64,000 bases of DNA from a virus. Lineage: Duplodnaviria; Heunggongvirae; Uroviricota; Caudoviricetes. Every line of letters begins with the position of its first letter. The stretch's first letter is position 1. Below are positions 3,001 to 60,015 of this stretch, one piece after another. Below the pieces are notes generated by a model, which made no database searches, was not told the origin of the DNA, and was given only the letters and a program-made list of their open reading frames with translations. The translations under genes and the position numbers were made by a program. The DNA is taken from the IMG/VR virus record IMGVR_UViG_2740892442_000004. One strand, 5' to 3'.

Positions 3001-4215
3001 GAAGATTCGGCTCTGGCAAGCCAGATCACCCAACTTCAGGCAAAAGTTGATGATGATATTTCTGCTGCAATACGCAGTGAGCAGGAGGCTCGTGCGAGCG
3101 GAGACTCTGCGTTAGCTAAACAAATAAACCAGCTTCAAGCAAAGGTTGACGGTGATATATCCGCCGCCATCACTCAGGAGCAGGAGGCCAGAGCAAGTGC
3201 TGACGAGGCGCTCTCACGAGAAATTAACAGCCTGCGAGCACAGACCGGAACTGATATTGCCGCAGCGGTTGCTGTAGAGACAAAGGCAAGGACTGATGCC
3301 GATAGTGCATTGTCCACTCAGATTACGTCTCTTACAGCAAAAGCTAATGATCTCGAGGCATCTCTTGCCAGAGAAACAACGGCTCGTGCAGATGGTGATA
3401 CCGCTTTAACAAAAGAGGTTTCAAGTTTAAAAGCACAGACTGCGAAAGATATTAGTGCGGCCGTTGCAGTTGAAACGCAGGCTCGAACTGATGCTGACTC
3501 GGCGTTGTCATCTCAGATCACCAAGCTGACCTCTCAATACAAAGAGGATATTAAAGCGGCTGTAGCAACCGAAACGAAAACGCGTACAGAGCAAGATGCT
3601 GCATTGGCGACTCAAATCACAAACTTAGAGTCTCAAACGGCAGCCAACATTTCCGCGGCGGTAACAACTGAAACGACAGCGAGAACGCAGGCAGATAATG
3701 CTCTGAGTGGGCGAATCGATACTCTGAAAGCAGAGGTGGATGGAAATACCGCGATAATTCAACAGCAGGCAACAGCTATTGCTGATACCAACAAAAAAGT
3801 ATCAACCGCGTGGACGTTGAAAATGGAGACTTCAACGAGCGGAGGGCAGAAGTATGTTGCCGGTATTGCGCTTGGTATTGACACCACTGGGCTATCTCAG
3901 TTTTTGGTTCAGGCGGACAGGTTTGGTTTGGTCAACTCTGTTAACGGGAAGATCACAACGCCATTTGTTATCGAAAACAGTATCGCCTATATGAATGGAG
4001 CGTATATCAAGGATGGCACAATCACCAATGCAAAAGTAGGCGATCTGCAATCTACCAATTTTGTTAGCGGTAGATCTGGATGGCGGTTCGGCAAAAATGG
4101 AACGCTTGAGATCAACGGTAATAGCGGCGGCAATGGGCGATTGGTTATAAATGGTCAGCGGATTGACGTTTATGACGATAACAACGTCCTACGAGTAAGA
4201 ATTGGCCGTCTGTGA
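1..4215 (+). CDS. Tail tip / host-specificity protein, lambda gpJ-like (5' end cut by window edge)
   Basis: Frame is open from nt 1 into the 166-4215 ORF. Segment WDGTFKLLSSSNPAWILFDLLTNARYGLGQY...AFGCTSRGQAHRVGLWLLYT matches the conserved core of lambda J-type central fibre proteins (recalled, not searched). C-terminal third is tandem 33-36 aa repeats. Confidence 0.8.
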   Translation, partial: AEGEKSVGIKLTAKKTGVYYRSYELKLPKPGRAYKVRVVRITDDNSSQYLYNDTWVDSIGEIVDTPMNYPNSVLVGLKVNSEQFGSTMPSRSYLVRGLKIRVPSNYNESSNTYAGVWDGTFKLLSSSNPAWILFDLLTNARYGLGQYVSESMIDLGQLYQIGRYCDEEVDDGFGGKEKRFAINTQITSRQDAYRLIQDIAGAFRGMVFWAGGMVNIMQDSPSDPVMMFTNSNVKDGLFTYKGSARKDRPSVALVTYNNKEDGYKQNIEYVEDQDAMRRYGERKTEVVAFGCTSRGQAHRVGLWLLYTARMESDVITFTAGLDASFLMPGETVLIQNKYRAGKRNSGRIVAFTKNSVTLDAPVSLAKGGCFIRILNQEGKIVERDVLETGENITKVTFSKALSSAETPVLNGVWTITEPDLEPMRVRIVNIAQGETPGSFDITAVENNPSKYEAIDNGATLIPQNTTVLDPTYSKPSNLQITEGTYLSSPGNLSVKLTATWEGKSPEYWISWRRSDENNVSNWQSARVTEEQYEIVNVAENGRYDFQLYAVSFNGKKTEIISTVYQVLGTMTPPDAPTSLTAVGDYRNVILNWVNPDSVDLDHINVYASQTNNLDTAKLIAESASTTFTHAGLGDSETWYYWVRASNKRGMLSPPNSNLGTEATTRDVLSFLTGKITSSELGQALLEDINSKASQEAVDELNEHINQSVESLEGAVNDVKEDIAELDKQFSDNLADFEIKFNERSDALENAQTELKGEVSATIDKVNEAFEKIDATDAAIVEIENTVSEHDKALANTVEAIKAARDEAAALIAKESEARVEGDAANAKQLEVLQSTVEESSAAVEEMKKTVAEVDRASAELTTNIEALAKTNIDLALRQDEDQHKQMVNNAKIATTQKTFADDMSAMATKVEEIRVEIGEDIKASILEESTARADGDEALAKRVTQLQSKFEGDISAAISTEQEARTSADEALTKQITQLESKVSNDIVAAIKEEQEARATEDSALASQITQLQAKVDDDISAAIRSEQEARASGDSALAKQINQLQAKVDGDISAAITQEQEARASADEALSREINSLRAQTGTDIAAAVAVETKARTDADSALSTQITSLTAKANDLEASLARETTARADGDTALTKEVSSLKAQTAKDISAAVAVETQARTDADSALSSQITKLTSQYKEDIKAAVATETKTRTEQDAALATQITNLESQTAANISAAVTTETTARTQADNALSGRIDTLKAEVDGNTAIIQQQATAIADTNKKVSTAWTLKMETSTSGGQKYVAGIALGIDTTGLSQFLVQADRFGLVNSVNGKITTPFVIENSIAYMNGAYIKDGTITNAKVGDLQSTNFVSGRSGWRFGKNGTLEINGNSGGNGRLVINGQRIDVYDDNNVLRVRIGRL
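2855..3745 (+). repeat. Tandem ~99-108 bp in-frame repeats (about 9 units) inside the J-like gene
   Basis: Units begin GATAT(T/C) at about 2855, 2947, 3055, 3154, 3253, 3439, 3547, 3646; they encode DISAAI..EQEAR(A/T)SADxAL..QI(T/N)QLQAKVD coiled-coil-like units. Confidence 0.7.
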
Positions 4216-9972: not shown

Positions 9973-9998
9973 AAATGAGGGGAACACATTATTCTTCG
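9973..9998 (+). terminator. Rho-independent terminator after lysis cassette
   Basis: GTTCCCCTCA-aat-GAGGGGAAC hairpin followed by a T-rich tract. Confidence 0.5.
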
Positions 9999-10510
9999 AA
10001 CAATTTTTCGATAGATTTTGTAGGATAGAACAAAGAACGCTCGTTGTTACCAACCAGCTGGATAAAGCCTAAACTTTTATAAAACGCCTTGGCTTTGTCA
10101 TTTAACGCCTCAACGAAAAGTCCATGAATGCCTACAGCAAGAGATGCATTGTACACAACGCGCATTGCATGTGTTACAAGCATTGAGCCAAATCCTTGAC
10201 CTTGAAGGGACTTGTCCAAAGCCAGCCTACCCAAAGTAACACTTGGAACATTCCGATAAGGAACCTTCTTTTGTTTGCTTCTTGAAGGTAAGGACTCCTT
10301 TTCAAAACAACTACCTGACAAAGTGTAATATCCTAACACTTTTGGCCTTTCTTCTTGAGTGCAAAGCACATAAGCACGAAGAATTTTTCCCTCATGCTGC
10401 CTTTTTAAGTGGTTGGCTAAAAAGGCGTTTAGTGACTCTTCGCCGCAATCAAAACCGTTTAGATCATAATCTTTCTCTCCAGAGAAAATCTCTATCGTTG
10501 TATTGCTCAC
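9989..10510 (-). CDS. GNAT-family acetyltransferase toxin (TacT/AtaT-like type II TA toxin)
   Basis: 173 aa; GTG start with GGAG ribosome-binding site; motif RLALDKSLQGQGFGSMLV...AVGIHGLFVEALNDKAKAFYKSLGF characteristic of GNAT toxins; directly downstream of a DUF1778-like gene. Confidence 0.8.
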   Translation of the reverse strand: MSNTTIEIFSGEKDYDLNGFDCGEESLNAFLANHLKRQHEGKILRAYVLCTQEERPKVLGYYTLSGSCFEKESLPSRSKQKKVPYRNVPSVTLGRLALDKSLQGQGFGSMLVTHAMRVVYNASLAVGIHGLFVEALNDKAKAFYKSLGFIQLVGNNERSLFYPTKSIEKLFEE

Positions 10511-10517
10511 GAGTAAA

Positions 10518-10787
10518 CTACTCCATGCTTTTCAGACGATCAGCAGCTCGTTTCAGCTTGTCGTTCGGTGCCGGAGGATTGCTTATAGCGTCCATAACCA
10601 GATTCCAGGATTCTTCATTCAGAACTAGTCTACGGTGTTGCTCTATAACTTTCACGGCACGTTCAGATGCACTGCTAACCATAAACTGAGTAATGCTCTG
10701 GTTAGACATTGCGGCAGCTTCCTCGATGATGCTTTTATCGTCATCGGTTAATCTCAAATCGATGCGCTGCTTTTTTAGTGCTGACAT
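10518..10787 (-). CDS. DUF1778-family antitoxin (TacA/AtaR-like)
   Basis: Start ATG 10787 preceded by AGGAGG; MSALKKQRIDLRLTDDDKSIIEEAAAMSNQSITQF... is typical of the ribbon-helix-helix partner of GNAT toxins; 8-nt gap to toxin gene. Confidence 0.75.
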   Translation of the reverse strand: MSALKKQRIDLRLTDDDKSIIEEAAAMSNQSITQFMVSSASERAVKVIEQHRRLVLNEESWNLVMDAISNPPAPNDKLKRAADRLKSME

Positions 10788-11105
10788 GTATTCCTCCTGA
10801 TGGCCGTGATGTAGGAAGGCCATCAATCTCCTCTGTTCAAACTGAGTTTTCGACTCAAAAATTACTTTAAAAGGCTATAGCCCATTACGTGTGCATTATC
10901 AAATTGTGTACGGCATATCACCGTACTTGTAATATAGAGGTCATTGTTACTTTTTTCAACAGACAAATACAAGCTATGATTGCCAATTGTTAATCACAAC
11001 CTACCATTTAACCTTTACACCGCAGCCGTAGGCATTTAGGCTATATCACATATAAGAAAACAAGTTGTTTCAGACGATAATTATATACGCAAAGGGAACT
11101 CTCCA

Positions 11106-11774
11106 ATGACCAAGATCTTTGTGGTTGGCGGCACAAAGGGCGGGCCTGGCAAATCCACCGTTGCCCAGCAAATTGCCGTTTGCCTGAAAGTCAAAAAGAA
11201 GAAGAAGGTTTATATTACCGATATAGATATTCAGCGCACGACAACGAGCTGGTGTGAAGACCGTCGACAGAACGAAGACCTTGAGCTGATTCCTTTTGCA
11301 TACGTTCAGGATGACATCATTAAGCACCTAAAATCGCTTCAGGGTAGAGCTGAGTTTGTAGTGGTAGATGCTGGTGGCTTCGACTCCGAAATTCAGCGAC
11401 AAGCGATGCTGATGGCTGACGTTATCATTATCCCGCTGCGTCCTAAGCGTCGTGATTTGAAATCTTTACGTGACATCGATCCTATTATCGACAATGTTCG
11501 CAATGTAAACGATAAAGTGAAGGTCCGCGCGGTCATGAACCAGTGCCCGGCTTTGCCATCACAAGTGTCTCGCATTCTGGCGGCTAAAGAGATTGTTGAG
11601 ACGTTTGGAATCGAGTCTGCGCCAGTCAATCTATATAACCGCAACGTCTATGATGATGCGGAAGAGTCTGGTCGTTCTATCTTTGAAATGACCGGTAGCG
11701 AGCGCGACAAAAAGGCGGAAGCCGAGTTTGAAGAATTTGTAGATTATCTGTTGAGTCTGGAGGAAGAAGAATAA
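11106..11774 (+). CDS. parA: ParA-family partition ATPase (small type)
   Basis: Deviant Walker A GGTKGGPGKST at N-terminus; 222 aa; followed by a small basic protein gene with overlapping stop/start. Confidence 0.85.
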   Translation: MTKIFVVGGTKGGPGKSTVAQQIAVCLKVKKKKKVYITDIDIQRTTTSWCEDRRQNEDLELIPFAYVQDDIIKHLKSLQGRAEFVVVDAGGFDSEIQRQAMLMADVIIIPLRPKRRDLKSLRDIDPIIDNVRNVNDKVKVRAVMNQCPALPSQVSRILAAKEIVETFGIESAPVNLYNRNVYDDAEESGRSIFEMTGSERDKKAEAEFEEFVDYLLSLEEEE

Positions 11775-12133
11775 TGTCCATGAAAATGGGTGACCTAGCA
11801 AAGCGCAAAGAGCCTGATGCACCGGCTAAGAACACAACTCCTTTGCGCCAACCAGTCAGACCACAGGGACGCCCGACTCGTGGCAAAGAGAAAATTAAAA
11901 GCCGCACAATGTCACTGGAGGACGAATACTTCGAACTGCTGGAGATGATGAAGTTCATCCCTCGCTTCGAGAAGTTCACTCGTTCTGACGTGATTCGAGC
12001 AGCCATTTTCCATCTGGCAGAGAAGTCACCGCAGGAAATCGAGGACATCGTGAAATTGAATGAGGCGATCACCGCTGCCGATGTCACGATGCGTACCGAT
12101 GAAATCAAACGAGAGTTGATGAAGAAAGGTTAA
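11774..12133 (+). CDS. Small partition partner protein (ParG/ParB-like, putative centromere binder)
   Basis: 119 aa, basic N-terminus, translationally coupled to parA (ATAATG overlap); assignment by position only. Confidence 0.4.
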   Translation: MSMKMGDLAKRKEPDAPAKNTTPLRQPVRPQGRPTRGKEKIKSRTMSLEDEYFELLEMMKFIPRFEKFTRSDVIRAAIFHLAEKSPQEIEDIVKLNEAITAADVTMRTDEIKRELMKKG

Positions 12134-26770: not shown

Positions 26771-28879
26771 ATGTCTAAAAAACGTTCCATCAAAGAGGTT
26801 CAGGACTTCCGTGACAGTGTAAAACGAGTAGTCGCTCTCCTTTCAGGTAAAAACATCCCTGTTGCAGAACGAGGGGACGACGCTTATGTACGCTATAACG
26901 ATGATGGAGAGCCAATTCTCGTAAACATCCCATCAATCCCGGATAACGCAACACCGGCATTGATGAATGCTGTGCGCGGATTTCTCGATCATGAGGTTGC
27001 TCACATTTTGTTTACCGATATTCGTGTGTCCAACAAAATGAGAGAAAAAGGACGCGTTCCTTCCTGGTCGCTATGGAATGCCTTAGAAGACGTGTTCATC
27101 GAGCGAAAAATGGGTCAGGTCTTTAACGGAACAAGACGTAATCTGATGGCAACTCAGCGCCTTATAATCGAAAAAGTCTTTAAACCAAAGGCTTCAGAGG
27201 CTATTGCTTATTGTGGCAAAGATCAGCGCGCGCTTTTTCTAAACTTCTTTCTCTGTCCGGTTGTAAGAGCCTGGGATGGCCAAGCACCGTTCGTAGATTT
27301 CATGGATGAATATTGGCCTGTCATTGAGAAACCAATTTCATTATTAAAAGAACATGGTATCGATGTGGCCGTGCGTAACATGTCTTGCACCGAGGATTGT
27401 GTAAAGGTGGCTGCGACCATAGCTAAGATCCTCAAAGACACTGAAAGTGAAAGCAAAGGTAAGGAGTCAGCTCCGGGAAAAACTTCCGATCCTTCAGACG
27501 CTGACCAGACGGATGCCTCTGGAGAAAACAATGAAGACAACGAAGATCATGAGACACCCTCAGCGTTAGATAATCACAAATCTATCAAATCAGAATCACA
27601 CAGTAAGCACAAACATGATAATAACGACGGTGATGATTCAGATAATTCTGAATCATCAGAAACAATATTCGATGATACAGAAAATGATAAAGAGGTATCA
27701 GATTCTGATGCTTCTGATAACGCGGTGTCAGAATCATTTACCGCTGACCACGAAAAAAGAAAAACGACAGAAGACGGCTCTTCAGATATCCCAACTCCGT
27801 CAAAAATGAGTCTGGAAGAGGCTTTAGAGGAGCTGGATAGCATAGAAGATGAAGTCGGAGGCATGACAGAAGATGCTCTATCCGAAACGATTAAAAGCGA
27901 GTTAACAGAAAGCTCGAAAAGCGAATACAGGCCATACAATCGCTCATACGACTTCATCGGCTCGATTGATCAGGCAGAAGCCCATATCAAACGGCTTATT
28001 AAAACATTCTCCGATATTGATTTAGGTGGATATCCAATCAGCCGTTATCGCATCGTTCCTGAAGGCAACCAACTCTTCGACAAATATATTGAAAAGCACC
28101 TTTCGTCAGGTGTTTCGTCGACGCTGGCAAAAGACCTGGAGCGAGCAATAGCAAGCAGAAACAGAGTTCAGTTTATACCTGGCCAGCGTCGGGGGCGCAT
28201 TCATGGTTCAAGTATCTACAGATTAACAATGAATGATGATCGCGTGTTTCGTAAAAAAGAAGAATCTAAAGCCGTTAACGCCTGTGTTCAACAAGTGATT
28301 GATTTATCGGGTTCAATGAGTGGCGAAACGATAAAACTAGCTCTTGCAAGTGCATATACCATCGCCGATGCACTTGATCGAATAAATGTTCCCAACATTA
28401 TCACCGGCTTCACTACATTTGGTAGTCATATGGCGGCAGGAGAACTTAAGGCTGTCAAGTATGAGTTCTCTCGCTTTGAATCTTTAATGCTACCTATCAT
28501 CAAAAATTGGAATGAAAAGGTAAATTCTCGCGAAGTTCGCTCACGTATGGGGTGCGTAGGCTACACATTCCCACTTCTTAATAACGTGGATGGTGAAAGC
28601 ATAGCCAGCCTTGCATCGTTATTTTCCGGTCGCATGGAGGACAGGAAGATCATGCTTGTTCTGAGTGATGGCGCGCCGTGGGCTGTTGGGAGAGGTTTTG
28701 ACGCTCATTTGCGTTCAGTTGCGAAGCAAATTGAAACGCAGACTGATATTGATTTGATGGCAATTGGCATCATGACTGACGCACCGGAGAGATTTTACTC
28801 AAATCATGCCCTGGTAACGAGCGTTGATAGTCTTGGTTCATCTGTAGTTACTGAACTATCTCGTATCATTTTAAAGTGA
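26771..28879 (+). CDS. CobT-like protein with C-terminal von Willebrand factor A domain
   Basis: 702 aa; long acidic Ser/Asp/Glu-rich linker; C-terminal VWA-like region (DLSGSMSG MIDAS-like motif); immediately upstream of a CobS-like AAA+ ATPase gene. Confidence 0.7.
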   Translation: MSKKRSIKEVQDFRDSVKRVVALLSGKNIPVAERGDDAYVRYNDDGEPILVNIPSIPDNATPALMNAVRGFLDHEVAHILFTDIRVSNKMREKGRVPSWSLWNALEDVFIERKMGQVFNGTRRNLMATQRLIIEKVFKPKASEAIAYCGKDQRALFLNFFLCPVVRAWDGQAPFVDFMDEYWPVIEKPISLLKEHGIDVAVRNMSCTEDCVKVAATIAKILKDTESESKGKESAPGKTSDPSDADQTDASGENNEDNEDHETPSALDNHKSIKSESHSKHKHDNNDGDDSDNSESSETIFDDTENDKEVSDSDASDNAVSESFTADHEKRKTTEDGSSDIPTPSKMSLEEALEELDSIEDEVGGMTEDALSETIKSELTESSKSEYRPYNRSYDFIGSIDQAEAHIKRLIKTFSDIDLGGYPISRYRIVPEGNQLFDKYIEKHLSSGVSSTLAKDLERAIASRNRVQFIPGQRRGRIHGSSIYRLTMNDDRVFRKKEESKAVNACVQQVIDLSGSMSGETIKLALASAYTIADALDRINVPNIITGFTTFGSHMAAGELKAVKYEFSRFESLMLPIIKNWNEKVNSREVRSRMGCVGYTFPLLNNVDGESIASLASLFSGRMEDRKIMLVLSDGAPWAVGRGFDAHLRSVAKQIETQTDIDLMAIGIMTDAPERFYSNHALVTSVDSLGSSVVTELSRIILK

Positions 28880-28974
28880 ACAAAACAGCCTTAACGATAA
28901 GTAACCACTTACGATAGATAATGATATATTTATATAAGAAGTTGAACGCTCATTAGAAAACAAAGGAAAAACGC

Positions 28975-30210
28975 ATGACTACTACTGCACTGCAAAATGA
29001 AAAAAATCCTTCTGATTACCTTGTTTGCAAGTGGTGCGGAAAATCATTTCACTATTTTAAGTCCCATGTAGCCAATGGTAATTGCGAGGGCATTCCTGAG
29101 TCAGTAAAAGATGCCGATCCTGACACCGTACTGAAAATGTACACAACACAGTTTCCAGATGAGCCAACGCTATCGAAAAAGGCACTTGATGCAATTCAAG
29201 CTAAACGTGCCGAGCAAAAAAGCGAAATGGCCAAATCATCTGGCGTGACCAGTAGCCCAGGCTACACAGGCACAGTTGAGTACAAGACAGATCTGGTCGC
29301 AGCTCACGAACTGCTAAATGTAACGGTGAAAGAACTCGGAACAAAACGTGGGACGCCGCTCATGGTTAGCGTCAACGTCAATACGCCGTTTCCAGAGTTC
29401 GTTCCTGAAGTGAAGAAGGGATACGTATATGGCGACTTCGAACTGATCAAAGACATTTTCATGATGCTTGAACTTGGCATACCTGGCTATTTGTGGGGTC
29501 ATGCAGGAACAGGCAAATCTTCATTGCCTACACAACTATGTGCTTTGCTCAATCGTCCGTTAATCCGTGCCCAACATACAGCATCAATGGAAGAGGCTCA
29601 TGTTACGGGACAAATTCTGGCGCGTGATGGCTCTACGTATTTCGAGCCTGGCTTGCTTGCGCTCGCAATGAAGCATGGCTGGGTTTACCTCGCGGATGAA
29701 TACGACTTTGCGTTTCCACAGATTCTTGGCGTGTATCAGCCAGTGCTGGAAGGTGAAGCGTTGGTCATCAAAGAGGCGACTCCAGAATGGCGTCGCATTA
29801 CTCCGCATGAACGGTTTGCTTTCATTGGCACTGGCAACACGAACGGATCTGGTGATGAAACCGGCTTGTACCAGGGTACAAACATCCAGAACGCCGCGAA
29901 CTTTTCGCGTTTTGGCATCGTTTCGAATGTGAAATACATGAGCAAAGAGGCAGAGATCAACATGTTGATAAATGCCGGTATCGTGGATGAATACGCAGAA
30001 AAGATGGTTAAGTTTGCCGGTATCGTTCGCGATGGATACGAAGAACACCTTATCAGTCAGCCAATTGGCCCTCGTGAACTTTTGTTGTCGGCCAAGATTG
30101 GAATGATGCGAGGCGACTTTGTGACAGGTATTGAGCGTTCTTTCATTAACAAACTCCCTTCAGCTTCTGCACAAGCGGCTCGTGAAGTTGTTCAAAAAAT
30201 ATTTGGTTAA
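28975..30210 (+). CDS. CobS-like AAA+ ATPase (MoxR-type)
   Basis: Walker A HAGTGKSSL, Walker B WVYLADEYD; 411 aa; pairing with the CobT-like VWA gene. Confidence 0.75.
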   Translation: MTTTALQNEKNPSDYLVCKWCGKSFHYFKSHVANGNCEGIPESVKDADPDTVLKMYTTQFPDEPTLSKKALDAIQAKRAEQKSEMAKSSGVTSSPGYTGTVEYKTDLVAAHELLNVTVKELGTKRGTPLMVSVNVNTPFPEFVPEVKKGYVYGDFELIKDIFMMLELGIPGYLWGHAGTGKSSLPTQLCALLNRPLIRAQHTASMEEAHVTGQILARDGSTYFEPGLLALAMKHGWVYLADEYDFAFPQILGVYQPVLEGEALVIKEATPEWRRITPHERFAFIGTGNTNGSGDETGLYQGTNIQNAANFSRFGIVSNVKYMSKEAEINMLINAGIVDEYAEKMVKFAGIVRDGYEEHLISQPIGPRELLLSAKIGMMRGDFVTGIERSFINKLPSASAQAAREVVQKIFG

Positions 30211-33938: not shown

Positions 33939-34212
33939 TAAAGAATTATGGCGCTTGTTGAGGAAGTCACTCCTCTTACGCACTTTGTTTTGCCATGCCG
34001 GCAGTTAGCTTCTGCCTTTGACTATTCATGCGGCAACCCCGCATTTCGCCACAATGGGCAATTCACTTTTATGGAATAAACTGGCCGTTGTGTCGATTTA
34101 ATTAGCATGGCCTTACCATGCTAATTTATTCAACTTGTACAATCCTACAAATCTATCCACTCAGGCTTACACCGTCTTCGTTATTGTAGAAATGAGGATC
34201 ATCAGCGTTGAA

Positions 34213-34428
34213 TCAGCTTAGAGCAACGACATTTGCTGCTGCTGGGCCTTTAGCCCCATTCTCGATAGAGAATTCGACCTGCTGGCCTTCTTCCAAAGTG
34301 CGGAAATTATTACTCTGAATTGCCGAAAAATGTACAAAAACATCTTTACTGCCATCAGCAGGAGAAATAAAGCCAAAGCCTTTATCAGAGTTAAACCATT
34401 TTACTAAACCAGTCATTTTATTAGACAT
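34213..34428 (-). CDS. Cold-shock protein, CspA family
   Basis: [38 protein letters not shown]... with RNP motifs; start ATG 34428 with AAGAAGG ribosome-binding site; long 5' leader. Confidence 0.85.
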
Positions 34429-34757
34429 AGATATTACCTTCTTAATTTTGTGAGCCACATAGTGCGGCGAGAATTTGATCTGTATAGATTGGGACTTACT
34501 TAGGCACTTAAGGAGGAGACTCACGAAGAAGGGAAATCAGAAGATAACACTGAACTGAGACTGCTTTACTAAAACTGCTTACATAAGGTCTGTCTTGCAA
34601 ACCAACGATGCTATTAACGCATACCCCTTCTTTTCATGCAACCTTTATTTTTCAAAGATAACTAATTTTTGTCACCATTGGTTTAGTAAACGTTAACGAA
34701 CCAGACGATGCCAGACACCTTTACAGAGAACAGATGCCCGCCAATTGGCGGGCATCA

Positions 34758-38710: not shown

Positions 38711-39784
38711 ATGGCAAAAGGAAAATCCGCACTGGCACTTGCTCTGAAAAAGAAAATCGGTAGCAACGACGAAATTCAGAAAGTAACTCATTGGATTGAT
38801 ACAGGCTTTCCACCGTTAAACAAAGCTATTTCTGGTCGTTACGATGGCGGCTTCCCATGTGGTCGTATCGTCGAAGTATTCGGTCCTCCAAGTGCAGGGA
38901 AAACGTTCCTTGCAACAGCAGCGATGATCTCCGCTCAAAAACAAGATGGTCTGGCGGTATTCCTCGATCATGAAAACAGTTTTGACGTTGGCCTGGCTGT
39001 CGCCAATGGCCTGAACGCAGATGAGGATGACGGTCAGTGGGTATACAAGCAGCCAGATACCTTCGAAGACTCTGTAGAGTTGATCGGCACAATACTTAAA
39101 TTGGTTCGTGATGAAGAGCTTATCCCCGAATCAGCACCAATCTGTATCGTGGCTGACTCTCTTGCGTCTATGGTTCCGAACTCCAAAGCCGAGAAGTTCG
39201 AAAAGATGGCTGAAGGCACTGCCAAAGACAAAGATCAGCTAAACATGAACGACAATACGGCACTGGCTCGTGCGACGAGTGCGAACTTCCCTACTCTGGC
39301 TTTGTGGGCACGCAAATACAACGCCTGCATCATCTTCTTGAATCAGGTTCGCACAAAAATCGGTGTAATGTTTGGCGACCCTACTACGTCGCCAGGTGGA
39401 GATTCACCGAAGTTCTACGCTTCTGTACGTATCCGTCTTGGTGCATCGGTGATGAAGGATGGTAAAGAGAAGATCGGCCAGGACGTAGGCGCAGAATGCA
39501 TCAAAAACAAAGTTGCACCACCGTATGGCAAATGCACCTGGAAATTCTACTTCGATCCTACTCGTGGCCTCGACGTTATCGAATCGCTCGTCGAGTACAT
39601 GCTGGAAGAAGGATACCTGCCAAAGAACGCCAGCGGGCGAGTTGAAATTGGTGACAAGAAATACACCAAATCGCAGATCGTCGAGATGTATCGGGAGAAG
39701 CCACTGGCTGAAATCATTGCGGCTTTGCAGGCAATCGACGACCGAAGAGCAAAAGACAACCCCACCGAGTCAGTAGAAGAGTAA
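38711..39784 (+). CDS. RecA/UvsX-family recombinase
   Basis: Walker A GPPSAGKTFLA in a RecA-like core; 357 aa. Confidence 0.8.
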   Translation: MAKGKSALALALKKKIGSNDEIQKVTHWIDTGFPPLNKAISGRYDGGFPCGRIVEVFGPPSAGKTFLATAAMISAQKQDGLAVFLDHENSFDVGLAVANGLNADEDDGQWVYKQPDTFEDSVELIGTILKLVRDEELIPESAPICIVADSLASMVPNSKAEKFEKMAEGTAKDKDQLNMNDNTALARATSANFPTLALWARKYNACIIFLNQVRTKIGVMFGDPTTSPGGDSPKFYASVRIRLGASVMKDGKEKIGQDVGAECIKNKVAPPYGKCTWKFYFDPTRGLDVIESLVEYMLEEGYLPKNASGRVEIGDKKYTKSQIVEMYREKPLAEIIAALQAIDDRRAKDNPTESVEE

Positions 39785-41973: not shown

Positions 41974-42309
41974 ATGAAGGCCATCCCATTCGCGCTGTTG
42001 TTCCTTTCTTCGATCGTTGTGGCCGACACCACTGTTTATCAGTGTGAAATGTCTGTAGCCGACGTTAAGAATGGCGCTCTTACCGACGTCATAAAAGCAC
42101 CATATGGAGCGATGGTCGTAGACAGCGGCGACCAGTTCTATGTTGTGCGTGACGATCGAGTGTTGTCATCCCCATATCTCACAAATCGTAATGGCAAATT
42201 AACCGGCGTCGGAGAAGACCACTTCGTATACAACAAATACAAGGGCTTCTATGGTGTTCACGCTTCTCAGCAAAGCTACCTTTTCGATGACTGCAAGGAG
42301 GTTGGATAA
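41974..42309 (+). CDS. Hypothetical secreted protein
   Basis: Signal-peptide-like N-terminus MKAIPFALLFLSSIVVA. Confidence 0.45.
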   Translation: MKAIPFALLFLSSIVVADTTVYQCEMSVADVKNGALTDVIKAPYGAMVVDSGDQFYVVRDDRVLSSPYLTNRNGKLTGVGEDHFVYNKYKGFYGVHASQQSYLFDDCKEVG

Positions 42310-42506
42310 TGGCATTAACACTGGCAGGTCTGGAAATCGAGAAAACAAGCGGCTACTGGCGTGCTAAGGGTTTCAAGCAGCCTGGCATTCTTGAGCGTCT
42401 GGAACGTGAAGATGGGTATATCGTCCACCAGCGGCGTGAATGGCGTATGTACGATCCAGAAACAGGAAAACTGACTACAAAAGCCGGAACACTTTGGGTC
42501 TGTTAA
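42309..42506 (+). CDS. Hypothetical small protein
   Basis: 65-aa ORF translationally coupled to the upstream gene. Confidence 0.35.
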   Translation: MALTLAGLEIEKTSGYWRAKGFKQPGILERLEREDGYIVHQRREWRMYDPETGKLTTKAGTLWVC

Positions 42507-42566
42507 AGAAAATACACTAAATGCAAACTGACTGCGGCACGTTCCGCAGTCATATTTCATAGTCGT

Positions 42567-42976
42567 CACCGCTGACAGCATACACAATCAACTACCGCTG
42601 ATAGCATATCGAGAGTCTATCTCACCGCTCACAGCATACTTTACTCGATTTTTTACCGCTGACAGCATACTTAAGACATTGCATGAATAATGTGTACCGG
42701 TATGGGTATAACCAGAACAAAATTACCGCTGGCAGCATACGAAGGTCTGACATATACCATTAATTACCGCTGATAGCATATCCAAACTGGAATGCACTCT
42801 TCGAGGTTAGTAACCACTGGGGAGGTATGACAGAGCATTGAGTGGTGATAGATGATTTACCGCCCACAGCATACGTTCATCTCACTATACCGCTGGTAGC
42901 ATATATTTAACCGTTTACAGCATACTTTTCAGAAAAATAGCCGCTGATAGCATACATTTCACCGCTGACAGCATAT
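42567..42976. repeat. Iteron array, 11 copies of a 17-bp repeat, downstream of repA (incA-like)
   Basis: (T/C)ACCGCTGACAGCATAC and variants at 42567, 42593, 42623, 42654, 42724, 42765, 42858, 42888, 42909, 42939, 42960, with irregular spacing. Confidence 0.85.
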
Positions 42977-44070
42977 CAAAGCAGTTTGAGACTATTGGAA
43001 AGGATCTCAATCATCTTGATATTTTCAGGCGTCAAATTCTGCGAAAGTTCGGTTATCTTGTTGATAATGTTCTGTTTGGCATCAATTTCCCCAGCTTTCT
43101 CATCTAGTTTTTTGGGTTCGATGTCTTCAGGTTTTGGCGGTGCGACTTTGAGTTTTGGATTGCGGCTGTGAATCTGGATATAGATCGACCGCCCTCGCTT
43201 AATCTCGCTGTATTCGAGATAACCCAAATCTTGGAGAGCTTTTAAGCCGTTGCGTATAGTCTGATTCTGCGAGCTGACATTCCTGCTACTCAAATTGAGT
43301 CGCGCACGCAATCGAGCAAGCGATACCGGCGCAGGCTTGGTTGGAAGACTTTCGATGAAGGTGTACAGAGCCTGTGCTGTTTCTTTGCGTGGTAGCTTAT
43401 TGATAACCTTTAACTGCAAAAGAACCTTATGGTCAAAGCGATATAGTTCGGCCAGCTTCGGTTCTGCATAGAACACCACCGTATCTTTCTGCTCGTTGTA
43501 GTCCACGCTATTGATGAGGTGCACCATCAGAAGCGAGATCTTGTTAGAGCCGTCGACGTTCTTTTCTTCATACGTTCTCTGGAAAGACAGAGTTGTACGC
43601 ATGATCTTCAAAAGACTGTTTGTAAGCCGGTCGCGGAGTGTTTTGCGGATCTGTGACGATGGATAGCCACAAAACTTCGCAAATTTCGTGATGCTTAACT
43701 CGACACGACCGTTAGGTTCGCCGTATTCTGCCAGCGAACGCACAACGCCCACCCACGTTTTGAAATCATGATCCATGTCGAGACGAGGACCGGTTATCTT
43801 GATATCGGAATAGCCTTCAGAACGGGCTACTTCGAGCTGAACAAGCTCCTTTGAAGCATCGATCTCATTTGGCTTGTTACGCTTGCTGTATTTTGTCCCC
43901 TTGAGCGTGGGCACGAACAATCCCAGCCGCATCAACGCAATTGGTTGGACTGTATTGTTGCTATTAGGGACAAGTTCCCCTGTGTACAATTCAAGGGAAC
44001 CTTCTTCAAAGTTGTCGAGATTATCTTCTACTTCTTTGTTATTTTTACCTTTTTTATTTTTTGTGGACAT
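42976..44070 (-). CDS. repA: Plasmid replication initiator RepA (iteron-binding)
   Basis: Gene bracketed by iteron arrays on both sides; start set at ATG 44070 (MSTKNKKGK...) so the upstream iterons fall in the promoter region; basic N-terminus. Confidence 0.7.
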   Translation of the reverse strand: MSTKNKKGKNNKEVEDNLDNFEEGSLELYTGELVPNSNNTVQPIALMRLGLFVPTLKGTKYSKRNKPNEIDASKELVQLEVARSEGYSDIKITGPRLDMDHDFKTWVGVVRSLAEYGEPNGRVELSITKFAKFCGYPSSQIRKTLRDRLTNSLLKIMRTTLSFQRTYEEKNVDGSNKISLLMVHLINSVDYNEQKDTVVFYAEPKLAELYRFDHKVLLQLKVINKLPRKETAQALYTFIESLPTKPAPVSLARLRARLNLSSRNVSSQNQTIRNGLKALQDLGYLEYSEIKRGRSIYIQIHSRNPKLKVAPPKPEDIEPKKLDEKAGEIDAKQNIINKITELSQNLTPENIKMIEILSNSLKLL

Positions 44071-44089
44071 GTGGACACCTTTGTCATTC

Positions 44090-44192
44090 AACCGCTGACA
44101 GCATACTTGATTTGCCGCTGACAGAATACCAAAAACAGTTGGCAGCATACGGTGAACCGCTGACAGACTATCAATTACCGCTGACAGCATAC
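44090..44192. repeat. Iteron array upstream of repA (incC/origin-like), 4 full and 1 partial copy
   Basis: AACCGCTGACAGCATAC (44090), TGCCGCTGACAGAATAC (44113), partial GGCAGCATAC (44141), AACCGCTGACAGACTAT (44155), TACCGCTGACAGCATAC (44176). Confidence 0.8.
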
Positions 44193-44233
44193 ATGAACAT
44201 GGCTTCAGACCAGTCGTGGCGCGGCTTACAGCG

Positions 44234-44306
44234 ATCGGGGATCTTATTTGATCTATACAAGGATCTATCTATGGATCTCTTTATTAGGATCTATCCTGTG
44301 GATATG
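44234..44306. promoter_or_regulatory. Origin-like region: six GATC sites in about 60 bp plus DnaA-box-like TGTGGATAT
   Basis: GATC at 44234, 44241, 44251, 44263, 44275, 44289 inside GGATCTA-type heptamers; DnaA-box-like sequence at 44298-44306; adjacent to the upstream iterons. Confidence 0.6.
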
Positions 44307-44391
44307 TGAATAATTAAAACAGGCATTTACTACCTTCGGCGCACCTGGTGGGTTATCGTTGCCTCGGCTAACAATCACAGAAAAATGACAT

Positions 44392-45036
44392 ATGGATCTA
44401 AAACGCACGCGCTGGGTTCGTCGTCTTGAAGACGGCTCCTACACTATCGAATCAAATTCCAACCTGAATAAGCAGAAGTTGCTTTGTGACATCTGCGGTA
44501 TAGCGGCGAAGTGCCCGATCTACGAAACCAGAATTAAACTTGATAAGGCTGGTGTGAATTTTCATTTAAACAGTTGCATCAGGTACGTTCCATTACTCGC
44601 ATTTCGTAAACCGATCATCGGATTGGATGCTCCCTACTTCAACACACTCCGTTCAGGTGTGACGTGGCGAGATCGTTTATCACCAGACAAGCTGATTTGC
44701 CTCGTATCCGCAGACACAGGGAAAATCATCCGTTTTGGGAAAGTAGACAAGGTTTACTCAGGCCCAGTAGACGAAATGTTGCGGAAACACAGCCGGTTTA
44801 ATCATCTCTGTATGGGTGGTGAGAAAATCGAGAAGGTAGAAGAAGTGATCCGCAAATCCTACGGACACTTTCTGACCAAAGATAGCCTGCTCACCGCAAT
44901 CTACATCAGACATGTAAAACGTGAGTTCGACCTCGAATACCACAGCGAAGAAGAGCTTAACCTTGTTGACCCACGTCCAAAAGCTGGCGTCATAAGCATA
45001 AACGCAGCGCGTAAAAAGCCCACTGACGCGCTGTAA
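44392..45036 (+). CDS. Hypothetical protein
   Basis: 214-aa ORF next to the origin region. Confidence 0.45.
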   Translation: MDLKRTRWVRRLEDGSYTIESNSNLNKQKLLCDICGIAAKCPIYETRIKLDKAGVNFHLNSCIRYVPLLAFRKPIIGLDAPYFNTLRSGVTWRDRLSPDKLICLVSADTGKIIRFGKVDKVYSGPVDEMLRKHSRFNHLCMGGEKIEKVEEVIRKSYGHFLTKDSLLTAIYIRHVKREFDLEYHSEEELNLVDPRPKAGVISINAARKKPTDAL

Positions 45037-59421: not shown

Positions 59422-60015
59422 ATGATTGCAGCCGAAAAAATCAAACAGCGAAAGCGCGACAACTCTCTTCGTGACCTCTGGAGAACACCTGACTGGCTGT
59501 TTTCTGCCATTCAACGTTATCTTGGAGTGACATTTGATGTTGACGTTGCCTGCAACAAGGACAATGCAAAGCTGCCTAATTTCATAGGCGTTGAGCGTGA
59601 TGCTTTGAAATCTGAATGGGGACAGCCAGGTACAATTGCCTTCCTCAATCCACCCTACTCCAAAATCTCCCCCTGGATTGATGCGGCTATACGTGAGCAG
59701 GCTCGCGGAGTTACAACAGTGATGCTAATTCCTCAATCCCTAGATACAAAGTGGTATGAGCGTGCAACAGAGTGTGCGAATGAGACGATTATTCTGTCTG
59801 GTGGCCGCGTAGCGTTTGTCGAGCCTGACGTCAATCTGGGTCAGGTAGAAGTAAACATCAACCCAGGTGGCAGTATGCTCGTTGTTTTTCGAGGATTCTG
59901 TCAGGACGCTGGGCACTCTATAAGCAAGATCCCTTTGGACGTCATGAAAAGTCTGGGAGGGTATGATCCTGCGAATGTGATCAGGAAAAAAAGACCATCA
60001 AAGAAGGCTGCTTAG
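59422..60015 (+). CDS. Phage-type DNA N6-adenine methyltransferase (orphan, no cognate endonuclease seen)
   Basis: Catalytic motif NPPY (AFLNPPYSK) in a ~197-aa protein; preceded by palindromic ATAGGTATTTACTTACCTAT motif. Confidence 0.75.
   Translation: MIAAEKIKQRKRDNSLRDLWRTPDWLFSAIQRYLGVTFDVDVACNKDNAKLPNFIGVERDALKSEWGQPGTIAFLNPPYSKISPWIDAAIREQARGVTTVMLIPQSLDTKWYERATECANETIILSGGRVAFVEPDVNLGQVEVNINPGGSMLVVFRGFCQDAGHSISKIPLDVMKSLGGYDPANVIRKKRPSKKAA

What the first reader, a model, noticed from the sequence alone, without database searches (positions are those of the whole stretch)
42567..44306. P1-type iteron replicon carried by a tailed phage genome
repA (42976-44070, minus strand) lies between 11 iterons downstream and about 5 iterons in its promoter region, followed by six GATC sites in about 60 bp and a DnaA-box-like TGTGGATAT. 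This is the P1 incC-repA-incA/oriR arrangement. Together with ParA, a GNAT/DUF1778 TA pair and an XRE repressor, it indicates the element is maintained as a low-copy plasmid prophage rather than integrating.
Basis: partly seen in the sequence, partly recalled or inferred. Interest (0 to 1): 0.5.

Follow-up and report, generated by a model that had tools for sequence, protein, structure and literature searches.

The report
P1/RepFIB-type plasmid replicon in phage-plasmid

Summary
There are 11 direct iterons (42564-42976), repA on the minus strand (42976-44070, 364 aa), 5 iterons spaced 23/21/21/21 bp (44087-44192), six GATC sites in 59 bp (44233-44291), and two tandem DnaA-box-like 9-mers (44297-44313).

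RepA is 46% identical to P1 RepA (E 4e-86) and about 50% identical to IncF RepFIB initiators. The non-iteron origin core is 77% identical to P1 oriR over 118 nt, in the same order and orientation.

The element is a pECOH89-type, SSU5-supergroup phage-plasmid, a type the literature calls IncFIB(H89-PhagePlasmid). The replicon is found in 119 of 5,426 complete E. coli genomes, always on plasmids and never on a chromosome.

- All downstream iterons point one way.
- The iteron sequence differs.
- RepA has the RepFIB C-terminal tail.
- Partition uses a small ParA 31 kb away.

This is already known biology. The useful extras are that the RefSeq 404-aa "RepB" start is probably wrong, hiding four to five origin iterons inside a CDS. 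One paper places oriV in the downstream control array, and this copy carries a 124-bp deletion that removes one control iteron.

The parts
42529..42552 (.). G+C-rich hairpin (9-bp stem) just outside the last iteron. It looks like a terminator on both strands and is the probable boundary between the replicon and the upstream + strand operon.
   Evidence: terminator-like on both strands; inverted repeat I1
42564..42976 (.). Downstream (incA-like) control array of 11 direct iterons. Consensus on the + strand is wwTwACCGCTGACAGCATAC. Start-to-start spacing is 26/30/31/70/41/93/30/21/30/21 bp. All iterons have the same orientation as the origin iterons, and the last one abuts the repA stop codon. 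The array has no GATC and no DnaA box.
   Evidence: The copy number varies among near-identical relatives (9, 11, 12).
42782..42783 (.). Junction of a 124-bp deletion, relative to pECOH89-type plasmids, that removes one control iteron (12 become 11). None of the relatives listed shares it.
   Evidence: alignment A2; every listed relative aligns in two pieces with 124 nt extra
42976..44070 (-). repA, a 364-aa initiator of the RepFIB/P1 family (Rep_3 WH1 domain). The C-terminal ~55 aa tail is shared with RepFIB and SSU5 RepA and is absent from P1 RepA.
44087..44192 (.). Origin (incC-like) array of five direct iterons spaced 23/21/21/21 bp (P1 incC: 22/21/21/21). The repA promoter is presumed to lie within it. 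The RefSeq 404-aa 'RepB' CDS reads through this array.
   Evidence: promoter candidates are weak
44210..44232 (.). G+C-rich spacer CCAGTCGTGGCGCGGCTTACAGC, conserved almost base for base with P1 oriR.
44233..44291 (.). Six GATC (Dam) sites in heptamer-like repeats (GGATCTA type). They correspond one to one with the P1 heptamers; in P1 the fifth is GGACC.
44297..44313 (.). Two tandem DnaA-box-like 9-mers, TGTGGATAT and TGTGAATAA, each 8/9. They are the positional equivalents of the P1 tandem DnaA boxes AGTGGATAA and TGTGGATAA.
   Evidence: P1 DnaA protein_bind feature
11106..12133 (+). Partition candidates 31 kb from repA: a small ParA-type ATPase (222 aa, KGGPGKS Walker A) and an overlapping 119-aa basic partner with no family match.
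9989..10826 (-). GNAT toxin (173 aa) and TacA/DUF1778 antitoxin (102 aa), an addiction pair.
59422..60015 (+). The element's own Dam-family N6-adenine methyltransferase. It may be relevant to the GATC-rich origin; its GATC specificity is inferred from the Pfam family and was not tested.
   Evidence: PF05869, E 2.5e-38

Best explanation
The region 42.53-44.32 kb is the plasmid-prophage maintenance replicon of a pECOH89-type, SSU5-supergroup E. coli phage-plasmid. It is a member of the RepFIB/P1 family of iteron replicons.

Proposed mechanism:
1. RepA monomers bind the five in-phase iterons at 44087-44192.
2. Host DnaA binds the tandem boxes at 44297-44313.
3. The intervening GATC-heptamer segment is the opening and sequestration region, dependent on Dam methylation and subject to SeqA.
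4. Host DnaB and Pol III then carry out theta replication.
5. RepA bound to the origin iterons also represses repA transcription.
6. The 11 downstream iterons titrate RepA and pair with ('handcuff') the origin iterons, holding the copy number low.
7. Stable inheritance is completed by a distant small ParA system, a GNAT/TacA addiction pair and a tyrosine recombinase.

Shown here: the anatomy, the protein and DNA homology to the experimentally defined P1 replicon, and the exclusively extrachromosomal location of this replicon in complete genomes.

Inferred from P1 and RepFIB: RepA-iteron binding, dependence on DnaA and Dam, autoregulation, handcuffing and low copy number.
For: - Iteron enrichment and arrangement.
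- RepA is 46% identical to P1 RepA, E 4e-86. It is 48% identical to SSU5 RepA and 85% to Klebsiella SSU5-like RepA, and about 47-50% to RepFIB in more than 5,000 plasmids. It matches Pfam Rep3_N WH1 and phrog_775 at 4.6e-133.
- The P1 record annotates oriR, incC, incA, five Dam sites, DnaA boxes and PrepA in the same order.
- The origin core is 77% identical to P1 oriR over 118 nt and to SSU5 over 109 nt, and is conserved in a five-way alignment. IncF RepFIB replicons use the same plan.
- The upstream array is fixed at five iterons with identical spacing in four relatives, while the downstream array varies between 9 and 12. That fits an essential origin and a dispensable control locus.
- GATC clusters and DnaA boxes flank only the upstream array. 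There is only one origin core in the window.
- 0 chromosomal versus 185 plasmid locations in 5,426 complete E. coli genomes.
- The element encodes its own Dam-family methyltransferase.
- A relative, PhiR41_1, is deposited as a phage with E. coli K-12 MG1655 named as host. The related phage-plasmid Cyrano has a measured copy number of 5.5 (PMC9928086).
Against: - No experiment on this replicon was found in the papers I could read.
- No convincing sigma-70 promoter for repA is detectable in the iterons. The best candidate is TTGATA-19 nt-TATGCT. The positional equivalent of P1 PrepA is only TTGGTA-18 nt-AAGTAT.
- Both DnaA boxes are 8/9 and overlap by one base.
- The GATC region is only moderately A+T-rich: 57% against 54% for the window.
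- Cyrano's copy number of 5.5 is not strictly 'low copy', and Cyrano has a different RepA.
- One paper places oriV in the downstream iterons (PMC13463583).
Confidence: 0.9

Rival explanations
1. The origin (oriV) is the distal cluster of downstream iterons, as proposed for the near-identical plasmid pEc_K1G_A. On this reading the initiator is the 404-aa 'RepB', and the upstream repeats are simply part of its coding sequence.
For: PMC13463583 describes an iteron-type oriV of four 21-bp repeats downstream of a 1,215-nt repB. PMC6735626 likewise reports only downstream iterons for the Klebsiella IncpKPHS1 relatives. RefSeq annotates the 1,215-nt CDS.
Against: - In the homologous, experimentally defined P1 replicon, oriR is the upstream array plus the GATC and DnaA-box core, and the downstream array is incA.
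- That core is conserved at the nucleotide level here, whereas the downstream array has no GATC and no DnaA box.
- The downstream array varies from 9 to 12 copies among near-identical elements, while the upstream five are invariant.
- The 404-aa ORF is open only because the 21-nt iterons are in frame and contain no stop codon. SSU5 and P1 have in-frame stops 18 and 33 nt upstream of the equivalent start. The ATG at 44070 has a Shine-Dalgarno sequence, and the ATG at 44190 lies inside an iteron with none.
Confidence: 0.06
2. The module serves lytic (vegetative) phage DNA replication rather than prophage maintenance.
For: It sits among phage DNA-metabolism genes: DnaB-like helicase, primase, DnaE, ligase, NrdAB, SbcCD-like and RecA-like genes.
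Against: - Iteron replicons with an RepA-titrating control array are copy-limiting by design. In P1 this homologous module is the plasmid replicon, and lytic replication uses a separate origin (own knowledge; for the P1 annotation).
- The same replicon family maintains more than 5,000 ordinary non-phage plasmids.
- The same replicon also sits on 62-76 kb plasmids that are much smaller than the ~110 kb phage-plasmid.
Confidence: 0.03
3. It is a decayed or non-functional remnant, or the repeats arose by chance.
For: This copy has a 124-bp deletion in the control array and a frameshifted recombinase elsewhere in the window.
Against: The repeats exceed every shuffle. repA is intact and 99-100% identical across more than 100 circular plasmids. 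The deletion removes one iteron of a locus that is dispensable in P1.
Confidence: 0.01

Closest known systems
Bacteriophage P1 plasmid replicon (oriR/incC - repA - incA; IncY)
   Same: - Homologous RepA, 46% identical.
- Same order and orientation of parts.
- Five origin iterons at 21-23 bp spacing.
- GATC heptamer positions that correspond one to one.
- The conserved spacer CGTGGCGCGGC.
- Tandem DnaA boxes at the outer end.
- A second iteron array that starts at the repA stop codon.
- Both phages encode their own Dam-type methyltransferase (for this window; own knowledge for P1 dmt).
   Different: - Iteron sequence: TTACCGCTGACAGCATAC here, TTTCCCTCCAGCACACATC in P1.
- 11 (normally 12) downstream iterons in one orientation, against 9 in P1 (3 in the origin orientation plus 6 inverted).
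- Six GATC rather than five.
- RepA has an extra ~12 aa at the N-terminus and a ~55 aa C-terminal tail.
- There is no parAB-parS next to the control array.
- The virion is SSU5-like (siphovirus according to the literature), not the P1 myovirus type.
RepFIB basic replicon of IncF plasmids (e.g. pSLT repA2, pO121 RepFIB)
   Same: This is the closest initiator outside the phage-plasmids: 47-52% identity, including the C-terminal tail. The origin plan is the same, running DnaA box, five GATC sites, iterons, rep.
   Different: The origin core is less similar than P1's (73-74% over 77-93 nt, E about 1e-6). The iteron sequence differs. The carrier is a conjugative plasmid, not a phage.
SSU5 / pHCM2 / pLF82 (Cyrano) / pKPHS1 phage-plasmid replicons; PlasmidFinder types IncFIB(pHCM2), IncFIB(pKPHS1), IncFIB(H89-PhagePlasmid)
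   Same: Same phage backbone and the same position of the replicon between conserved genes. The Klebsiella relatives use the same iteron and have 85% identical RepA. pECOH89 (NC_023916) carries the same sequence, and its paper reports RepA 48% similar to that of pLF82, as found here for Cyrano.
   Different: SSU5 and Cyrano RepA are only 48% identical and use a different iteron (AACCACTGTAGAGAGTAG). SSU5 has two tandem copies of the origin core plus iteron cluster, and downstream iterons in both orientations. This window has 11 control iterons, where pECOH89-type plasmids have 12.

Membership tests
P1/RepFIB-family iteron replicon | Initiator homologous to P1 RepA / RepFIB RepA | tested here: met
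   BLASTP gives 46% identity over 278 aa, E 4e-86, to P1 RepA. tblastn gives 47-50% to RepFIB. The multiple alignment has 80+ invariant columns.
P1/RepFIB-family iteron replicon | Origin with about five direct iterons spaced two helical turns apart, immediately upstream of rep | tested here: met
   Five iterons at 44087-44192, spaced 23/21/21/21 bp, against P1's 22/21/21/21. The arrangement is conserved in four relatives.
P1/RepFIB-family iteron replicon | Cluster of GATC-containing heptamers plus DnaA boxes on the rep-distal side of the origin iterons | tested here: met
   Six GATC in 59 bp and two 8/9 DnaA boxes. The segment is alignable with P1 oriR at 77% over 118 nt.
P1/RepFIB-family iteron replicon | Second iteron array downstream of rep (incA-type control locus) | tested here: met
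   11 iterons at 42564-42976, abutting the stop codon. Orientation differs from P1, where 6 of 9 are inverted.
P1/RepFIB-family iteron replicon | rep promoter embedded in the origin iterons (autorepression) | tested here: inconclusive
   No sigma-70 match on the minus strand at the scan threshold. A looser scan gives only TTGATA-19-TATGCT. The positional equivalent of P1 PrepA is TTGGTA-18-AAGTAT.
P1/RepFIB-family iteron replicon | Autonomous replication; iteron-mediated incompatibility and copy control; dependence on DnaA, Dam and DnaK | not testable with these tools
   Indirect only: the replicon is always on plasmids (0 chromosomal places in 5,426 genomes).
Rep_3 (WH1-WH2) initiator superfamily | Match to the Rep_3 WH1 domain model above the curated threshold | tested here: met
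   PF01051 Rep3_N, 37.5 bits against a cutoff of 22.4, aa 118-239. There was no PDB sequence match and no structure was predicted.
SSU5-supergroup phage-plasmid | SSU5-like backbone (tail genes, DnaE, helicase, primase, NrdAB, Dam) combined with a plasmid replicon, carried as a ~100-115 kb circle | tested here: met
   The window is 94-99.6% identical, block by block, to NZ_CP027358 (110 kb circular plasmid). It is related to phages PhiR41_1, CMS-2020a, SSU5 and Cyrano.
P1-type partition module (type Ia parA-parB-parS adjacent to incA) | A large (~400 aa) ParA with N-terminal HTH, plus ParB, encoded next to the control iterons | tested here: not met
   The only deviant-Walker-A ATPase is a 222-aa ParA at 11106-11774, 31 kb away, with a 119-aa partner. 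The 411-aa ATPase at 28975-30210 is CobS-like AAA_5, not ParA.

The most novel reading that the evidence does not exclude
The true origin lies upstream of repA, not where the papers I could read and the RefSeq CDS imply. On this reading the downstream array is a tunable throttle. Its length polymorphism among near-identical phage-plasmids (9, 11 or 12 iterons, produced by deletions within the array) would set prophage copy number and therefore the dosage of cargo genes. This window's 124-bp deletion would then be a natural mild copy-up allele. Separately, the host-factor part of the origin (DnaA boxes, GATC heptamers, GC spacer) is conserved from P1 to SSU5-like elements, while RepA and iteron specificity has diverged. 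That could be what allows P1-like and several SSU5-like phage-plasmids to coexist in one cell.
Probability: 0.3. Interest if true: 0.35.

Novelty: already known. Interest (0 to 1): 0.2.

Why it matters
It matters mostly for annotation and typing. This replicon is in about 2% of complete E. coli genomes. Its relatives carry CTX-M-15 (pECOH89) and other resistance genes.

The RefSeq CDS for the initiator probably starts 120 nt too early and swallows four to five of the five origin iterons. Two papers list only downstream repeats; one of them calls those repeats the oriV, and one states the element is unrelated to P1.

Recognising the P1 oriR homology allows the detailed P1 and RepFIB mechanistic literature to be applied to this group: Dam/SeqA dependence, DnaA, handcuffing and copy-up mutations. 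It also predicts which sequence changes alter copy number, incompatibility and curing. It does not reveal a new kind of system.

Tried and rejected
- NCBIfam gave no family for RepA. The PDB sequence search gave no hit at E up to 1. No structure was predicted, because the homology to P1 RepA and RepFIB already answers the question.
- Rfam found nothing in 42.3-44.5 kb. It found only three tRNAs and a cspA thermoregulator elsewhere in the window.
- The promoter scan found nothing convincing for repA.
- The inverted iteron-like site inside repA (43722-43737; 14/15 match to one iteron) was considered as a regulatory site and rejected as probable chance. At the 14-nt core it has 3 mismatches. Three such off-array hits in 64 kb fall below the shuffle expectation of 4.9. 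The site is absent from the Klebsiella homolog.
- The 411-aa AAA ATPase at 28975-30210 was tested as a P1-like ParA and rejected. It is AAA_5/CobS-like and sits next to a CobT gene.
- The C-terminal tail of RepA was considered as a novelty and rejected. It is shared with RepFIB and SSU5 RepA, and P1 RepA is the odd one out.
- A second origin core in the window was sought and not found.
- Three papers could not be read: Lindler 1998 on pMT1, Gilcrease and Casjens 2018, and the 2026 preprint 10.64898/2026.08.19.745698 on phage-plasmid copy number. I therefore cannot say whether the oriR-level homology of SSU5-group replicons to P1 has been described explicitly. From memory, the P1/P7-like replication and partition genes of pMT1 were noted in 1998-2000.
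Full report

Yes. Reading 42300-44700 shows an obvious repeat. The 14-nt core CCGCTGACAGCATA, allowing up to 3 mismatches, occurs 19 times in the 64 kb window, against 4.9 +/- 2.1 in dinucleotide-preserving shuffles (0 of 100 shuffles reach 19). Eleven hits lie between 42569 and 42975 and five between 42092+2000, that is 44092 and 44191. All sixteen are on the + strand. The three remaining hits are what chance predicts.

The repeat finder groups the copies as 20-nt units. The + strand consensus is wwTwACCGCTGACAGCATAC. The upstream five start 23, 21, 21 and 21 bp apart. The downstream eleven are spaced 26/30/31/70/41/93/30/21/30/21 bp.

The minus-strand ORF between the arrays is repA. Six GATC sites start at 44233, 44240, 44250, 44262, 44274 and 44288. 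This is the only place in the window with more than three GATC in 65 bp, and about 0.015 such clusters are expected from the window's GATC density. TGTGGATAT at 44297 is an 8/9 DnaA box. A second 8/9 box, TGTGAATAA, follows at 44305, overlapping it by one base.

**2. What is the gene?**

With the ATG at 44070, RepA is 364 aa.
- It matches Pfam Rep3_N (the WH1 domain of iteron-plasmid initiators) above threshold.
- It matches phrog_775 at 4.6e-133.
- It aligns with P1 RepA at 46% identity over 278 residues, E 4e-86 (tblastn).
- It is 48% identical to SSU5 and Cyrano RepA and 85% to Klebsiella SSU5-like phage-plasmids.
- It is 47-52% identical to the RepFIB initiators of IncF plasmids, which number more than 5,000 in PLSDB.

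The C-terminal tail of about 55 aa that P1 RepA lacks is shared with RepFIB and SSU5 RepA. The protein is therefore a standard member of the RepFIB/P1 family.

RefSeq annotates a 404-aa 'RepB' that starts at 44190. This is very likely an artefact. The 21-nt iterons are in frame and contain no stop codons, and their TATGCT supplies ATG codons. In SSU5 and P1 there are in-frame stops 18 and 33 nt upstream of the equivalent start. The ATG at 44070 is preceded by AAAGGTG, whereas the ATG at 44190 sits inside an iteron with no Shine-Dalgarno sequence. Other depositors use the 364-aa start.

**3. Comparison with P1, feature by feature**

The P1 GenBank record annotates, in the repA direction: a DnaA site, five Dam sites, incC (five iterons spaced 22/21/21/21, with PrepA embedded), repA, then incA (nine iterons, the first overlapping the repA stop). 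The window has the same order and orientation.

The non-iteron origin core also aligns base by base. Window 44210-44324 against P1 oriR is 77% identical over 118 nt (E 2e-17 in that pairwise search, with the alignment). The aligned segment includes the spacer CGTGGCGCGGC, six heptamer positions that correspond one to one (in P1 the fifth is GGACC rather than GGATC), and the tandem DnaA boxes.

The same core is conserved in SSU5 and in a Klebsiella relative. It is conserved more weakly in IncF RepFIB replicons, which also run DnaA box, five GATC sites, iterons, rep.

In contrast, the iterons have diverged. The window and Klebsiella share TTACCGCTGACAGCATAC, SSU5 has AACCACTGTAGAGAGTAG and P1 has TTTCCCTCCAGCACACATC. 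So the part that binds host factors is conserved, and the part that sets specificity is not.

**4. Which array is the origin?**

The upstream one, with high probability.
- It is the homolog of the experimentally defined P1 oriR.
- It alone is flanked by GATC heptamers and DnaA boxes. The downstream array has no GATC and no DnaA box.
- It is invariant (five iterons, identical spacing) in the window, NZ_CP027358, PhiR41_1 and Klebsiella p4727. The downstream array has 11, 12, 9 and 9 copies respectively.

That pattern is what is expected of an essential origin and a dispensable copy-control locus, as incA is in P1 (own knowledge: Chattoraj, Abeles and Austin laboratories; the handcuffing model is cited via PMC8053113).

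Two papers I could read describe only downstream repeats. PMC13463583 calls four downstream repeats the oriV of the near-identical pEc_K1G_A and says the element is not related to P1. PMC6735626 reports four downstream iterons and no known domain for the Klebsiella IncpKPHS1 RepA. The evidence here disagrees with both on those points.

**5. What is the element?**

The window aligns at 94-99.6% identity, block by block, with the 110-kb circular plasmid NZ_CP027358. The replicon region is 98.7% identical to Escherichia phage PhiR41_1, which has K-12 MG1655 named as host. The same replicon sequence is in pECOH89 (NC_023916). pECOH89 is the SSU5-like CTX-M-15 phage-like plasmid, and the literature types its replicon as IncFIB(H89-PhagePlasmid).

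The window encodes:
- a tail-tip protein and a tail fibre;
- a GNAT toxin with a TacA/DUF1778 antitoxin;
- a 222-aa ParA with a 119-aa partner;
- DnaB-like helicase, primase, DnaE, RecA-like and SbcCD-like proteins;
- NrdAB, according to the annotation of the near-identical relative;
- its own Dam-family methyltransferase.

The 'XRE repressor' is only a weak, sub-threshold HTH_19 match. It is annotated 'transcriptional regulator' in the relative.

**6. Plasmid or integrated?**

In 5,426 complete E. coli genomes the replicon occurs in 119. That is 185 places on plasmids and none on a chromosome. 206 PLSDB plasmids carry it, 199 of them typed non-mobilizable.

The relative Cyrano has a measured copy number of 5.5 per cell (PMC9928086), but it has a different RepA. 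'Low copy' for this element remains an inference.

**7. Differences from P1**

- All downstream iterons share the orientation of the origin iterons. In P1, three of the nine do and six are inverted.
- There are normally 12, here 11, downstream iterons rather than 9.
- There are six GATC sites rather than five.
- RepA has the RepFIB C-terminal tail.
- Partition is not the type Ia parAB-parS found beside incA in P1. It is a small ParA 31 kb away.
- The repA promoter cannot be pinned down from sequence.

**8. Peculiarities of this copy**

A 124-bp deletion (junction 42782/42783) removes one control iteron that is present in every listed relative. By analogy with P1 incA deletions, this predicts a slightly higher copy number. 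That is an inference.

The tyrosine recombinase at 24725-25827 is split by a 1-nt deletion, compared with the intact 367-aa protein of NZ_CP027358. I cannot tell whether this is a real mutation or a sequencing error.

**9. Verdict**

The thing itself is already known. It is a RepFIB/P1-family replicon on an SSU5-supergroup phage-plasmid that is abundant in databases and has its own PlasmidFinder type.

The added value is modest. It consists of a precise anatomy, nucleotide-level homology of the origin core to P1 oriR, a probable correction of the initiator's start codon and of the published oriV location, and the iteron-number polymorphism.

Noticed in passing
window 24725-25827 (+): A tyrosine recombinase ('site-specific integrase', 367 aa in NZ_CP027358) is split here into 271-aa and 95-aa ORFs by a single-base deletion near 25503. 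It is either a real pseudogene or a sequencing error. In a plasmid prophage this enzyme is more likely a multimer resolvase (like Cre) than an integrase.
   Followed up: partly
window 42782/42783: A 124-bp deletion in the downstream iteron array, relative to all listed pECOH89-type plasmids, removes one iteron. PhiR41_1 has a different iteron-to-iteron deletion of 87 bp that removes three.
   Followed up: yes
window 44071-44190 (RefSeq CDS of relatives, e.g. WP_024219435.1): The RefSeq 404-aa 'RepB family' CDS extends 120 nt upstream through four to five of the five origin iterons. The frame is open only because the 21-nt repeats are in frame. The 364-aa start at 44070 is better supported.
   Followed up: yes
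window 38711-39784 (+): The RecA-like gene (357 aa) has no intein here. In NZ_CP027358 the same gene carries 1,269 extra nt and is annotated as a LAGLIDADG homing endonuclease, which indicates an intein insertion.
   Followed up: partly
window 34188-34606 (-): A full-length Rfam cspA thermoregulator match (185.7 bits) lies over a cold-shock-domain protein gene (34213-34524) on the phage-plasmid.
   Followed up: no
window 21985-22231 (+): Three clustered tRNA genes: Asn-GTT, Tyr-GTA and Thr-TGT. The pECOH89 paper reported only two (Thr and Asn).
   Followed up: partly
window 26771-30210 (+): A CobT-like (VWA) and CobS-like (AAA_5) gene pair. The 411-aa ATPase could be mistaken for a large ParA, but it is not one.
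   Followed up: partly
window 59422-60015 (+): The element encodes its own Dam-family N6-adenine methyltransferase (PF05869). This may be relevant to a GATC-dependent origin. P1 also encodes its own Dam (own knowledge).
   Followed up: partly
L004 (SSU5) 745-1000 and 1115-1400; 2500-3105: SSU5 has two tandem copies of the origin core plus iteron cluster upstream of repA. Its downstream iterons run in both orientations, as in P1 incA and unlike this window.
   Followed up: partly
window 43722-43737: An inverted iteron-like sequence lies inside repA (14/15 match to the iteron at 42727). It is conserved in the E. coli relatives but not in Klebsiella. It is statistically compatible with chance.
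   Followed up: partly
window 11774-12133 (+): A 119-aa basic protein overlaps the ParA stop codon (ATGA) and has no Pfam match. It is presumably the centromere-binding partner. No centromere repeats were looked for.
   Followed up: no
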